The position numbers were made by a program, and so were the translations under genes. From positions 30,501 to 94,500 of the IMG/VR virus record IMGVR_UViG_3300011008_000026: a DNA stretch of 64,000 nt. One strand, given 5' to 3'. The DNA comes from a virus. Its lineage: Duplodnaviria; Caudoviricetes. Below the pieces are notes generated by a model. The model worked only from the letters and a program-made list of their open reading frames with translations, ran no database searches and had not been told where the DNA came from. Of this stretch, positions 61,870 through 64,000 are shown piece after piece (within the stretch, counting starts at the first letter, position 1; each line of letters starts with the position of its first letter).

Positions 61870-62250
61870 ATTGCCTGAATGCGAAAACCGTGAACCATAT
61901 TCACTGTGTGGCCGCAGGGATAACCACCCAGTTTAAACTCTAAAACCCTGCAAATAACAGCTTGCGCTATAAGCTAAATATGAATAAGTGAGAGCAGCCA
62001 GACCGCCTAAGATAACGGCGGAGAATGCTGTTTTCAACCGGCATACATATGTGTGTATAGCCTGCGTGGCAAGGCCACGGTAAAGTTCATATTTCAACGC
62101 TGAAAGAACAAAGCTGAAAGCTTAAACTTTATGTTTGTGTAAAGTTTAACGAGTAACGGTTAAGCAGTAAGATTCGATAAAATCCCGGGTAAAGGGTTAG
62201 CGGTTGAATATGATGCCGCACGGTGAACCCCCGGGCTGCATTCAGGCAAT
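61870..62250 (+). ncRNA. Putative ~380-nt structured non-coding RNA
   Basis: Closed by 13-bp ATTGCCTGAATGC/GCATTCAGGCAAT; many internal helices; no ORF in the track. Confidence 0.6.
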
Positions 62251-62260
62251 TTTTATATAC

Positions 62261-62320
62261 GTAGGTATCGAAGGTTAACATCAAAAATTTGGTGTATGAG
62301 TTCAAATCTCATTACCTGCA
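62261..62320 (+). ncRNA. tRNA-like element (acceptor and T arm, no canonical D or anticodon arm)
   Basis: GTAGGTA...TACCTGC-A acceptor; ATGAG-TTCAAAT-CTCAT T arm; internal ACATCAAA/TTTGGTGT hairpin. Confidence 0.55.
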
Positions 62321-62356
62321 AGAAAAAAGAAAATGATTAAAAAGTAGGAGATTAAT

Positions 62357-63136
62357 ATGGCTGCTAAGAAAAAGCTGGTTGCAACAATTGAAACCGAAAA
62401 TGGGACCGTAGAAGAAACTTTTAATCCCGAAACCGCAAGCACCCGTGTAGAAATTAAGCCGGTTCCGATTGAGAAAGCCAGGATTAAGATTATTGGTGAT
62501 ACACCCCTGCTCGTTCATGCGTGGAGTGAAAAGGCTAAGAAGGAAATGCTTGCAAACCAGCAGATGTCCGCTCGTGAAAAGAAGGTTAAGGAACATGACA
62601 AGAGAGAGCCATTTGCTGACTTTGTAGAAGCGGCTTACTGGATTACTCCGCAGCCTGAGGTTCGCGGATTGCCCGAAGAAAAACAAATCAAACTGTTTGA
62701 AGATGCCATCGAGAATGGTGCACAGTTTGGATTCCCGGTCATCGCATTCAAACAGGCTACGATTCTTGCCTGTAAAGACGCTGGATTCATTCGTGGTACT
62801 ACCATCATGCGCAGGCTGTTCCATGTCAATGCTGTGAATGGCGCTCATGTTCGTTCCTCTCAGGAACTGGCTATTCTGAATATCGAAGAGCCGCCGGAAC
62901 TGTCTGAAGACGTCGTGAAGATTGGTCTGAGCAAGGTTGCCGATCTGCGGTATCGTCCTTCTTTCCGAAAGTGGAGCGTGGAGCTTGAGCTGAGTCTGAT
63001 TAAGACTGGTATGTTCGAAATGAGCGATATCATTACCGCGATCGATATGGCTGGATTTATGAACGGCGTTGGCGAATGGCGTATCGAGAAGAACGGTGAA
63101 TTTGGATGCTTCCATGTAGCAAGGGAAGGTGAGTAA
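62357..63136 (+). CDS. Stand-alone RAMP/Cas7-like protein
   Basis: ARIKIIGDTPLLVH first strand; FGFPVIAFKQA (cf. RAMP IPGSSLKG); C-terminal glycine loop AGFMNGVGEWRIEKNGEFGCFHV. Confidence 0.7.
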   Translation: MAAKKKLVATIETENGTVEETFNPETASTRVEIKPVPIEKARIKIIGDTPLLVHAWSEKAKKEMLANQQMSAREKKVKEHDKREPFADFVEAAYWITPQPEVRGLPEEKQIKLFEDAIENGAQFGFPVIAFKQATILACKDAGFIRGTTIMRRLFHVNAVNGAHVRSSQELAILNIEEPPELSEDVVKIGLSKVADLRYRPSFRKWSVELELSLIKTGMFEMSDIITAIDMAGFMNGVGEWRIEKNGEFGCFHVAREGE

Positions 63137-63661
63137 ATGCAAGCGTTTGAGTACAAATACAGAGTTTCCGGAATCCACAAAACACCAGCGCAGGTAGCCG
63201 GTGAAGTTTGCGAAGAGTTGTCTCATTCCGAGCTTGGCTTAACTCCTCAGACGCTTGTTGATTTCAGCCGTCCTGTCGAGTCTCCGACTCATCAGGAGTT
63301 TGAATGGGACGACAGCCTTGCAGCTGAAGAGTATCGCAAAACACAGGCCGCGAAGTTGATTCGGAATATCGTTGCTGTCAAAATCGAAGAGACGACTTCC
63401 GAGCGTGTTATCAGTATCATTGAAGAGCAAAGATCTTCTGAACGAAGCGCAGACAACCGGGTCACACAAAGGTGCTTCGTATCAACCGGAGAACGGGATC
63501 ACAACTACGTAACAATCGAAGACGCGATGGAGAACAGCGTCTGGAGAGCGAACCTGCTTGAAGCAGCCAAGCGCGACATGAAAGCGTTTGTCAGCAAATA
63601 CCGCATGTTAAAAGAACTCTCAAATATTATCGTCGAAATGGACGAACTCTTATCTGCCTGA
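63137..63661 (+). CDS. Conserved phage protein, partner of the RAMP-like gene
   Basis: Starts immediately after the upstream stop (TAA ATG); LTPQTLVD...HQEFEWDDSLAAEEYRKTQAAKLIR. Confidence 0.75.
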   Translation: MQAFEYKYRVSGIHKTPAQVAGEVCEELSHSELGLTPQTLVDFSRPVESPTHQEFEWDDSLAAEEYRKTQAAKLIRNIVAVKIEETTSERVISIIEEQRSSERSADNRVTQRCFVSTGERDHNYVTIEDAMENSVWRANLLEAAKRDMKAFVSKYRMLKELSNIIVEMDELLSA

Positions 63662-63716
63662 AGCTAGAAGACGCTTAAAGATCTTTCGGAGTGGGTGAAA
63701 GGCCTGAGAATGGTAA

Positions 63717-64000
63717 GGCAGCAGAGGTACGTCGCGTAATGGAAAGTTAGGGTCGGTCACGGTAAGGCAGCCATGGCGGGTTATGTCTAGCCAGGGAATT
63801 GTCAGTTGGGGCAGCCTAGGATGGTAATGGCAAGGCAAGTTGGATTCTGTTGAGTCGGGTTCTGTTAAGGCAGCCGAGGATGGTTTTGTCGGGGTCCGGC
63901 AGTGTCCGTCGAGTATTGGTTTGGCAGCCGAGGTGAGTTGAGGTGAGTCTTGATCTGCATCGGTTGGGCAGCCATGGTTTGTTGAGTCCTGTTCTGACCA
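63717..64000 (+). repeat. Pentamer-periodic repeat array, candidate guide-RNA array (truncated by the window end)
   Basis: GGCAGCNNN anchors at 63717, 63766, 63810, 63869, 63923 and 63967, separated by 8, 7, 10, 9 and 7 pentamers; 43 of 46 pentamers start with G. Confidence 0.85.

What the first reader, a model, noticed from the sequence alone, without database searches (positions are those of the whole stretch)
63717..64000. The array grammar: 9-nt anchor + n x (GNN + variable NN), unit lengths always 9+5n
Parsed by hand. U1 ggcagcaga|ggtac gtcgc gtaat ggaaa gttag ggtcg gtcac ggtaa. U2 ggcagccat|ggcgg gttat gtcta gccag ggaat tgtca gttgg. U3 ggcagccta|ggatg gtaat ggcaa ggcaa gttgg attct gttga gtcgg gttct gttaa. 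U4 ggcagccga|ggatg gtttt gtcgg ggtcc ggcag tgtcc gtcga gtatt ggttt. U5 ggcagccga|ggtga gttga ggtga gtctt gatct gcatc ggttg. U6 ggcagccat|ggttt gttga gtcct gttct gacca (cut off). Spacings are 49, 44, 59, 54 and 44. Position 1 is G in 43 of 46, position 2 is mostly G/T, position 3 mostly pyrimidine, and positions 4-5 vary freely. Period 5 is not explained by protein coding or by a simple satellite. Inference: the dinucleotide strings (U3: TG AT AA AA GG CT GA GG CT AA; U5: GA GA GA TT CT TC TG) encode a non-contiguous target, and the anchors are processing sites.
Basis: partly seen in the sequence, partly recalled or inferred. Interest (0 to 1): 0.92.

Follow-up and report, generated by a model that had tools for sequence, protein, structure and literature searches.

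The report
Phage VIPR guide-RNA array (staggered)
The 5-base-periodic array is the guide-RNA array of a phage VIPR system, a CRISPR-like RNA-guided DNA-silencing system first described in 2026 preprints, and one of its guides matches the single-strand-binding-protein gene of rival gut phages.

Summary
Six GGCAGC anchors are spaced 49, 44, 59, 54 and 44 nt apart, and G opens 43 of 46 pentamers. The array is cut by the contig end.

It is a vrRNA array of a VIPR system (bioRxiv 10.64898/2026.04.26.720920), the "staggered" form. Read as YNNGG, each unit is a whole number of pentamers. It ends in CAGCC, and the last C starts the next unit.

- **Proteins.** The 259-aa gene upstream is a Vipr. Its model has a RAMP fold, and it aligns to phage SUSP1 Vipr (98.6% probability) with the GGY-contact residues kept. 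A 174-aa accessory gene follows.
- **Linkage.** All 80 viral and 25 of 26 bacterial loci with a Vipr homologue carry such an array just downstream.
- **Targets.** Under the published one-base-skip rule, unit 5 matches the last seven codons plus stop of a Gp2.5/Enc34-type SSB gene in at least 97 contigs of gut Clostridia phages. Guides from sister arrays hit the same phages, at one-base skip only. Units 1-4 have no target found.

No RNA data were available, so cutting at the anchors is untested. This is a new member of a known kind.

The parts
62357..63136 (+). vipr gene (259 aa), a RAMP-fold protein that should polymerise on the guide RNA, one protomer per pentamer
   Evidence: AF2 model has pLDDT 79. 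All top PDB matches are CRISPR RAMPs such as Csm3, Cmr4/6, type VII Cas7 and gRAMP, with Foldseek E 8e-6 and VIA Z 9.3 over 152 residues. hhalign of its family against SUSP1 Vipr gives 98.6% probability and E 1.4e-15. H54, R200 and E240-W241-R242 align to SUSP1 H17, R138 and D177-W178-R179.
63137..63661 (+). accessory (vap-like) gene, 174 aa, phrog_15946
   Evidence: It abuts vipr here and in 11 close relatives. In L097 it lies after the array instead. AF2 pLDDT is 84. Only weak winged-helix-like matches were found, Z up to 5.6. It shows no similarity to SUSP1 vap1.
63662..63722 (+). conserved leader ending in the first GGCAGC
   Evidence: It is alignable with the leaders of L121-L124, sharing AAGATCT..CG.AGT.G.TGAAA.G.CTGA..ATGGT..GGCAGC. 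No sigma-70-like promoter was found.
63723..63772 (+). vrRNA unit 1: 10 pentamers; guide dinucleotides GA AC GC AT AA AG CG AC AA
   Evidence: Parsed. There were no exact one-skip matches in viral contigs.
63772..63816 (+). vrRNA unit 2: 9 pentamers; guide AT GG AT TA AG AT CA GG
   Evidence: Parsed. It gave 14 scattered exact hits in viral contigs, with no common gene, so this is chance level.
63816..63875 (+). vrRNA unit 3: 12 pentamers; guide TA TG AT AA AA GG CT GA GG CT AA
   Evidence: Parsed. There were no exact hits in viral contigs or metagenome contigs.
63875..63929 (+). vrRNA unit 4: 11 pentamers; guide GA TG TT GG CC AG CC GA TT TT
   Evidence: Parsed. There were no exact hits in viral contigs or metagenome contigs.
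63929..63973 (+). vrRNA unit 5: 9 pentamers; guide GA GA GA GA TT CT TC TG, targeting the 3' end of a Gp2.5/Enc34-type SSB gene of gut Clostridia phages
   Evidence: That family is PF10991 (E 2e-75) and phrog_112.
63973..64000 (+). vrRNA unit 6, cut by the contig end
   Evidence: It resembles the degenerate last unit of L124 (shared CATGG start and TGTTCTGAC), so the array may be nearly complete. That is an inference.

Best explanation
Window 62357-64000 is a VIPR locus of an uncultivated large phage: vipr, an accessory gene, and a staggered array of at least six vrRNAs. By analogy with SUSP1, the array would be transcribed on the + strand. Vipr protomers would bind it one per pentamer, burying G-G/T-(not G) and exposing the two variable bases. 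Each unit would then read double-stranded DNA as NN-x-NN-x..., skipping every third base, and silence the bound gene. The invariant last pentamer CAGCC lacks the GG. It most likely ends the filament and marks the boundary with the next guide, which shares its final C. Unit 5 is aimed at the last seven codons plus stop of the SSB gene of rival phages of gut Clostridia, so the system would serve inter-phage competition. Shown here: the grammar, the RAMP fold and homology to SUSP1 Vipr, the strict gene-array linkage, and the one-skip matches to rival phages. Inferred: transcription, processing, filament assembly and silencing.
For: (1) Grammar. Unit lengths are exact multiples of 5 in the window (5 of 5) and in 124 of 150 units from 17 related arrays. 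In the logo, positions 2-3 carry 0.02-0.06 bits, position 4 is G in 0.89-0.93, position 5 is G/T, and position 1 is never G. Units have 9-13 pentamers.
(2) Protein. The model has a RAMP fold. hhalign to the experimentally characterised SUSP1 Vipr gives 98.6% probability, with the GGY-contact residues conserved.
(3) Linkage. 80 of 80 viral loci and 25 of 26 bacterial loci with a Vipr homologue carry a period-5 G array just downstream on the same strand.
(4) Targets. Unit 5 gave at least 114 exact hits against 14 for a 16-base control guide, and 97 of them fall at one site of one gene family. The same pattern gave 0 hits in 401 Clostridia genomes, so there is no low-complexity background.
(5) Independent guides. 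In the loci fetched through unit 5, best hits of 124 guides at skip 1 were 5 perfect (one of them unit 5 itself, by construction) and 12 with one mismatch. Skip 0 gave 0 and 2, skip 2 gave 0 and 2, and shuffled order gave 0 and 1-2. The result was the same in five whole target genomes. One sister guide matched 22 of 22 bases.
(6) Codon register. The skipped base is codon position 3 in 112 of 126 distinct sites, on both strands, as published.
Against: No RNA evidence exists for this locus, so transcription, unit boundaries and Vipr binding are not shown. Units 1-4 have no target; only exact matches could be searched in the large collections, so imperfect targets would have been missed. Unit 5 specifies only 16 bases, four of them pairs of GA, so its match alone would be weaker without the sister-array hits. 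The array lacks the ~40-nt structured 3' tail of the characterised type II vrRNAs. The accessory protein is unrelated to SUSP1 vap1. The one-skip rule and silencing were demonstrated only for type II systems.
Confidence: 0.92

Rival explanations
1. The array is a decoy rather than a set of guides. It would be an RNA or DNA sponge that soaks up a Vipr, its own or a rival's, or solo vrRNAs that redirect another phage's VIPR, as reported for E. coli satellites.
For: The third VIPR preprint reports orphan and decoy vrRNAs. Units 1-4 have no target found.
Against: The array sits directly behind its own vipr and accessory gene, as in all 105 loci that carry one. Unit 5 and the sister guides hit essential genes of rival phages, not host decoy sites.
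Confidence: 0.04
2. It is a binding platform for a different periodic RNA-binding protein, in the manner of TRAP, which binds (G/U)AG triplets spaced by 2-3 nt, with a regulatory role and no guide role.
For: The 5-nt period with a conserved triplet resembles TRAP sites. This was my first thought, from knowledge of the Bacillus trp attenuation system.
Against: The conserved triplet is G-G/T-(not G), with A at the second position in only 2-4% of pentamers. The adjacent, strictly linked protein is a RAMP homologous to Vipr. The variable bases match foreign genes in codon register, which a pure protein-binding platform would not explain.
Confidence: 0.01
3. It is a DNA-level element such as a packaging site, origin iterons or a telomere-like end, or part of the 116-aa open frame on the minus strand.
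For: The array lies at the contig end and is G+T rich on one strand. A minus-strand frame is open across it.
Against: In relatives the array is internal to contigs of 105-150 kb and is followed by a hairpin plus T-run on the + strand in L121 and L124. A period of 5 with unit lengths of 5n-1 cannot encode a repeated peptide. The minus-strand frame has no PHROG match.
Confidence: 0.02

Closest known systems
VIPR type II system of Escherichia phage SUSP1 (bioRxiv 10.64898/2026.04.26.720920, .720927 and 2026.10.15.759431)
   Same: The Vipr protein is homologous, with the G-, G- and Y-contact residues conserved. Guides are built from GGY/NN pentamers. Targets are read with a one-base skip that falls on the codon wobble position, on either strand. 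The targets are competing mobile elements. The locus is a minimal two-gene locus in a phage.
   Different: SUSP1 vrRNAs are separate ~100-nt RNAs, each with a ~40-nt pseudoknotted 3' tail and spacer sequence between them. Here the guides abut, share one base, and end in a single CAGCC pentamer. The consensus is looser (HNNGK). The accessory gene is unrelated to vap1. The Vipr has an extra ~35-residue N-terminal extension and an insertion (259 vs 195 aa).
'Staggered vrRNA arrays' of the VIPR discovery preprint (fig. S18)
   Same: The legend describes vrRNAs derived from positions overlapping by 1 nt, where the end of one marks the start of the next. This is exactly the 5n-1 spacing seen here.
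   Different: I could not see the figure or the supplementary tables. I therefore cannot say which of the seven types this clade belongs to, or whether this clade was in their set. The text names only the ribozyme and single-guide forms as confirmed by sRNA-seq.
Class 1 CRISPR-Cas effector backbones (Cas7/Csm3/Cmr4 on crRNA)
   Same: The protein has a RAMP fold with a G-loop and thumb, would form a helical filament on a guide RNA, and disrupts pairing periodically.
   Different: There are no repeat-spacer units, no cas1/cas2 and no other cas genes. The period is 5 with three guide bases hidden per repeat, rather than 6 with one flipped. The guide is non-contiguous.
TIGR-Tas tandem interspaced guide RNA arrays (from my own knowledge, not tested here)
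   Same: These are phage-associated, non-CRISPR arrays of short guides next to a small RNA-binding effector.
   Different: TIGR arrays use ~36-nt units with two contiguous spacers and a Nop-domain Tas protein. They have no pentamer periodicity and no RAMP.

Membership tests
VIPR system | Vipr protein with RAMP architecture (RRM core, glycine-rich loop, thumb) | tested here: met
   AF2 model has pLDDT 79. The top 40 Foldseek hits are all CRISPR RAMPs, best E 8e-6. VIA-align gives Z 9.3, rmsd 4.6 and 152 aligned residues to Csm3. The C-terminal loop G-V-G-E-W-R...G-x-F-G is invariant in 20 homologues.
VIPR system | Homology to an experimentally characterised Vipr, with the residues that hold G1, G2 and Y3 | tested here: met
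   SUSP1 Vipr was identified at NC_028808.2 28474-29061(-) by its published residue numbers. hhalign gives 98.6% probability and E 1.4e-15 over 184 columns. H17, R138 and D177-W178-R179 align to H54, R200 and E240-W241-R242.
VIPR system | Guide RNA made of tandem YNNGG (GGY/NN) pentamers, 9-16 per guide, with NN uninformative | tested here: met
   Units have 9-12 pentamers in the window and 9-13 typically in the clade. G at position 4 is 0.89-0.93, position 5 is G/T, position 1 is never G, and positions 2-3 carry 0.02-0.06 bits. The consensus is relaxed to HNNGK; the preprint allows 'a related consensus'.
VIPR system | Array adjacent to vipr and on the same strand, without CRISPR repeats or other cas genes | tested here: met
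   In the window the array starts 55 nt after the accessory gene. 80 of 80 viral loci and 25 of 26 bacterial loci show the same linkage. Neither protein matches PADLOC.
VIPR system | NN dinucleotides match natural targets with a one-base skip, mostly at codon wobble positions, in competing mobile elements | tested here: met
   The feature is met for unit 5 and for sister arrays of the clade, with skip-0, skip-2 and shuffled controls. It is not met for units 1-4, where only exact matches could be sought at scale.
VIPR system | Accessory vap gene next to vipr | tested here: inconclusive
   A conserved 174-aa neighbour is present. It is unrelated to SUSP1 vap1 and gives only weak winged-helix-like matches, Z up to 5.6. 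Which vap family it is cannot be told without the preprint's supplement.
VIPR system | vrRNAs expressed, processed and co-purifying with Vipr; target silencing | not testable with these tools
   No sequencing run was listed for this DNA. There is no cultured phage or host.
VIPR type II (SUSP1-like) | Each vrRNA ends in an invariant ~40-nt structured tail (pseudoknot); vap1 accessory | tested here: not met
   Units abut with only the CAGCC pentamer between guides. The SUSP1 intergenic regions show the tails for comparison. vap1 similarity is absent. This is therefore a VIPR system but not type II.
CRISPR-Cas | Direct repeats of 20-40 nt separating contiguous spacers; cas1/cas2 adaptation genes | tested here: not met
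   The only repeated element is 6-7 nt long. The neighbouring ORFs are vipr, the accessory gene and a phage structural gene.
TRAP-type RNA target | (G/U)AG triplets separated by 2-3 nt | tested here: not met
   The middle base of the conserved triplet is G or T, and A in only 2-4% of pentamers.

The most novel reading that the evidence does not exclude
Staggered arrays may be a tail-less class of vrRNA. In this reading a single non-GG pentamer (CAG-Y-Y) both stops the Vipr filament and defines the cut between guides, perhaps cut by Vipr itself or a host RNase. Arrays would evolve by gain and loss of whole units, an adaptation-like turnover: L122 and L124 share three units in the same order amid unrelated ones. 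If so, this clade would show how multiplexed guides can be packed with no handle at all, and might hint at how new guides arise.
Probability: 0.3. Interest if true: 0.65.

Novelty: new member of a known kind. Interest (0 to 1): 0.42.

Why it matters
The locus extends the newly described VIPR systems to a large uncultivated phage. By the sample series of its relatives, that phage probably comes from a rumen or gut community, though I did not verify the samples. It gives a concrete natural target, the SSB gene of Heliusvirales-like phages of gut Clostridia. It also provides independent computational support that the one-base-skip code, demonstrated experimentally only for type II systems in E. 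coli, holds in a distant, tail-less, staggered-array clade. The target family hints that the phage's host is a gut Clostridium-type bacterium. For the scan, it shows that a careful reader can recover this code from raw sequence alone.

Tried and rejected
- **Rfam.** Nothing relevant in the array; the only match there, to a vertebrate lncRNA family (SOX2OT_exon3), scored 15.9 bits against a gathering score of 70.
- **Single-protein locus search with the accessory protein.** No relatives found.
- **Three-anchor DNA pattern scan.** Most hits were coding repeats with spacings divisible by 3. Only a handful shared the grammar.
- **Fourier detector.** It failed because each anchor shifts the phase.
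- **Exact one-skip target patterns.** Units 1, 3 and 4 gave 0 hits in viral contigs. Units 3 and 4 gave 0 hits in metagenome contigs. Unit 2 gave 14 scattered hits, which is chance level. Mismatched targets could not be searched at scale.
- **First local database (2.4 Mb).** No excess of skip-1 matches.
- **Unit 3 with up to 3 mismatches.** No hit in five whole target genomes.
- **Unit 5 in named or bacterial genomes.** It has 3 mismatches in the named Ruminococcus phage NatCom_28274, whose SSB ends FLA instead of FLS. It gave 0 hits in 401 Clostridia genomes.
- **RNA evidence.** The look-up of sequencing runs listed no run, so there is no RNA holder listed.
- **Terminator scan on L123.** No + strand terminator was called by the strict consensus.
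- **Accessory protein.** Foldseek found nothing at E 0.001 or below.
- **Preprint supplement.** The supplementary tables are not held, so the VIPR type (I-VII) could not be assigned.
- **Not used.** Complex prediction and the protein-atlas search were not needed.

Full report
**1. The observation.**
The sequence at 63717-64000 is as described. GGCAGC occurs at 63717, 63766, 63810, 63869, 63923 and 63967, with spacings of 49, 44, 59, 54 and 44 nt. The lag-5 autocorrelation of G is 0.30. The maximum was 0.23 in 2000 shuffles and 0.175 in 449 other stretches of the window. Tandem Repeats Finder finds no satellite. The window ends where the 94.5-kb viral contig ends, so the array is truncated. The contig start is coding sequence and does not continue the array.

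**2. The same grammar elsewhere.**
A three-anchor pattern scan of viral contigs returned mostly coding repeats. A few loci had the same 5n-1 spacing and period-5 G. These included GC-rich versions (GGCNN pentamers) and a 150-kb relative of this phage that holds a complete array (L082 plus L058, equal to L123). In one of these loci (L097) the array lay between homologues of the window's 259-aa and 174-aa ORFs. That pointed to the two genes upstream.

**3. What is already published.**
[quoted passage not shown] It describes:
- a small RAMP-like Vipr protein and an accessory vap gene;
- vrRNAs made of 9-16 YNNGG repeats whose NN bases pair with double-stranded DNA under a one-nucleotide-skip rule;
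- targets in competing phages and satellites;
- seven types and several array forms, including 'staggered arrays' in which vrRNAs overlap by 1 nt.

Two companion preprints give the filament and triplex structure and the biology in E. coli.

**4. The array fits the staggered form.**
Re-read in the YNNGG frame, every complete unit of the window runs from the last C of GGCAGCC to the next CAGCC. The units are exactly 50, 45, 60, 55 and 45 nt long and share one C with the next unit. In 17 related arrays, 124 of 150 units are exact multiples of 5. Most exceptions are single indels or a variant terminal pentamer.

The logo is as follows:

| Pentamer position | Content |
|---|---|
| 1 | never G |
| 2-3 | 0.02-0.06 bits |
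| 4 | G in 0.89-0.93 |
| 5 | G or T |

**5. The protein.**
- The 259-aa ORF has no Pfam, NCBIfam or PADLOC match.
- Its AlphaFold model (pLDDT 79) matches only CRISPR RAMPs at the top of both structure searches, with Foldseek E 8e-6 and VIA Z 9.3.
- I located SUSP1 Vipr at NC_028808.2 28474-29061 on the minus strand. It is flanked by intergenic GGT-NN repeats. Its residues 17, 33, 138 and 177-179 are the H, K, R and D-W-R named in the structure preprint.
- The profile of the window's family aligns to it with 98.6% probability and E 1.4e-15. H54, R200 and E240-W241-R242 fall on those contact residues.

**6. The accessory gene.**
The 174-aa neighbour is conserved beside vipr in close relatives. 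It is unrelated to SUSP1 vap1. Its model gives only weak winged-helix-like matches.

**7. Linkage between gene and array.**
Using the Vipr alignment, all 80 viral loci fetched carry a period-5 G array just downstream of the gene on the same strand. The same is true of 25 of 26 bacterial loci; the exception is cut by a contig end. These bacterial loci come from Clostridia, Selenomonadales, Alphaproteobacteria, Treponemataceae and Collinsella.

**8. Targets of the window's guides.**
- Exact one-skip patterns for units 1, 3 and 4 found nothing in viral or metagenome collections.
- Unit 2 gave 14 scattered hits. This calibrates chance for 16 specified bases.
Of these, 97 lie on the last seven codons plus the TGA stop of one ~200-aa protein ending ...DDDDFLS, with the skipped base on the wobble position.
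- That protein is a Gp2.5/Enc34-type ssDNA-binding protein (PF10991, E 2e-75; phrog_112).
- Its closest named homologues, 72-77% identical, are in phages of Ruminococcus, Oscillospiraceae and Lachnospiraceae (Ca. Heliusvirales) and in Streptococcus prophages. Unit 5 was checked against only one named phage, Ruminococcus phage NatCom_28274, and does not match it (3 mismatches).
- The pattern does not occur in 401 Clostridia genomes, so low complexity does not explain the excess.
- The window's own genome has no such gene.

**9. Independent support from sister arrays.**
The loci fetched through unit 5 served as a test set for guides of the other 16 arrays, which played no part in choosing them.

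| Condition | Perfect best hits | One-mismatch best hits |
|---|---|---|
| Skip 1 | 5 (one is unit 5, by construction) | 12 |
| Skip 0 | 0 | 2 |
| Skip 2 | 0 | 2 |
| Shuffled order, skip 1 | 0 | 1-2 |

These counts are for 124 guides. One sister guide matched 22 of 22 bases. Five whole target genomes gave the same picture. The hits fell in the terminase large subunit, a ParB/methyltransferase, an amidoligase, the DNA polymerase, the SSB and an exonuclease.

Among 126 distinct sites, the skipped base is codon position 3 in 112, on either strand. The invariant AG of the last pentamer is matched in only 5. So CAGCC is a boundary and not part of the guide, while the first pentamer's NN is part of the guide.

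**10. How the arrays evolve.**
None of the window's five units has a homologue in the relatives; the best identity is 64% against a background median of 51%. Where units are shared (L127/L129 and L122/L124), substitutions fall mainly on pentamer positions 1 and 5. They are rare at the first guide base and at the G (small sample).

**11. What is not shown.**
No RNA data could be found. Transcription, cutting at the anchors, Vipr binding and silencing are all inferred from the SUSP1 work. The preprint's text does not list staggered arrays among the forms it confirmed experimentally. The VIPR type could not be assigned because the supplement is not held.

**12. Verdict.**
This is a genuine, non-chance feature. 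It is a truncated staggered vrRNA array of a VIPR system, a new member of a kind described in 2026.

Noticed in passing
window 62261-62320 (+): A tRNA-like stretch lies just upstream of vipr. Its Rfam tRNA score is 23.6 bits, below the gathering score of 29, and ARAGORN does not call it. It may be a decayed tRNA or an attachment-site remnant.
   Followed up: no
L122:11806-12101 and L124:11445-11740: Two related arrays share three units in the same order (80%, 96% and 87% identity) among otherwise unrelated units. Arrays therefore seem to change by whole-unit gain and loss, somewhat like CRISPR spacer turnover.
   Followed up: partly
L123:11830-11875 and L125, about 50 nt after the last anchor: The complete arrays of two relatives end in a conserved element, ATCGCG..GGGGAGA CGCGAT ..AAATA TCTCCC(C) followed by T-rich sequence. 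It could fold as a pseudoknot-like cap or terminator. L121, L124 and L131 instead end in a plain hairpin, followed by a T-run in L121 and L124.
   Followed up: no
L113:7800-8443, L048/L095, L097, L025: GC-rich phage contigs carry the same grammar with GGCNN pentamers and the same GGCAG-C/T-C boundary. In L097 the gene order is vipr, array, accessory gene, unlike the window.
   Followed up: partly
phage records H1-H34: Vipr homologues annotated 'hypothetical protein' occur in cultured Gordonia and Mycobacterium phages (for example Pipp, UmaThurman, Quico), cyanophage Cy-LDV1 and Pseudomonas phage LESphi2. I did not check whether they carry arrays.
   Followed up: no
window 63662-63716: The 55-nt leader between the accessory gene and the first anchor is conserved in the four closest relatives. 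No sigma-70-like promoter was found in 62100-64000, so the array is probably co-transcribed with the two genes or read from a phage-specific promoter.
   Followed up: partly
G002 (contig behind L252): One of the targeted phage genomes is classed as a provirus by IMG/VR. Some targets of this VIPR clade are therefore resident prophages rather than co-infecting lytic phages.
   Followed up: no
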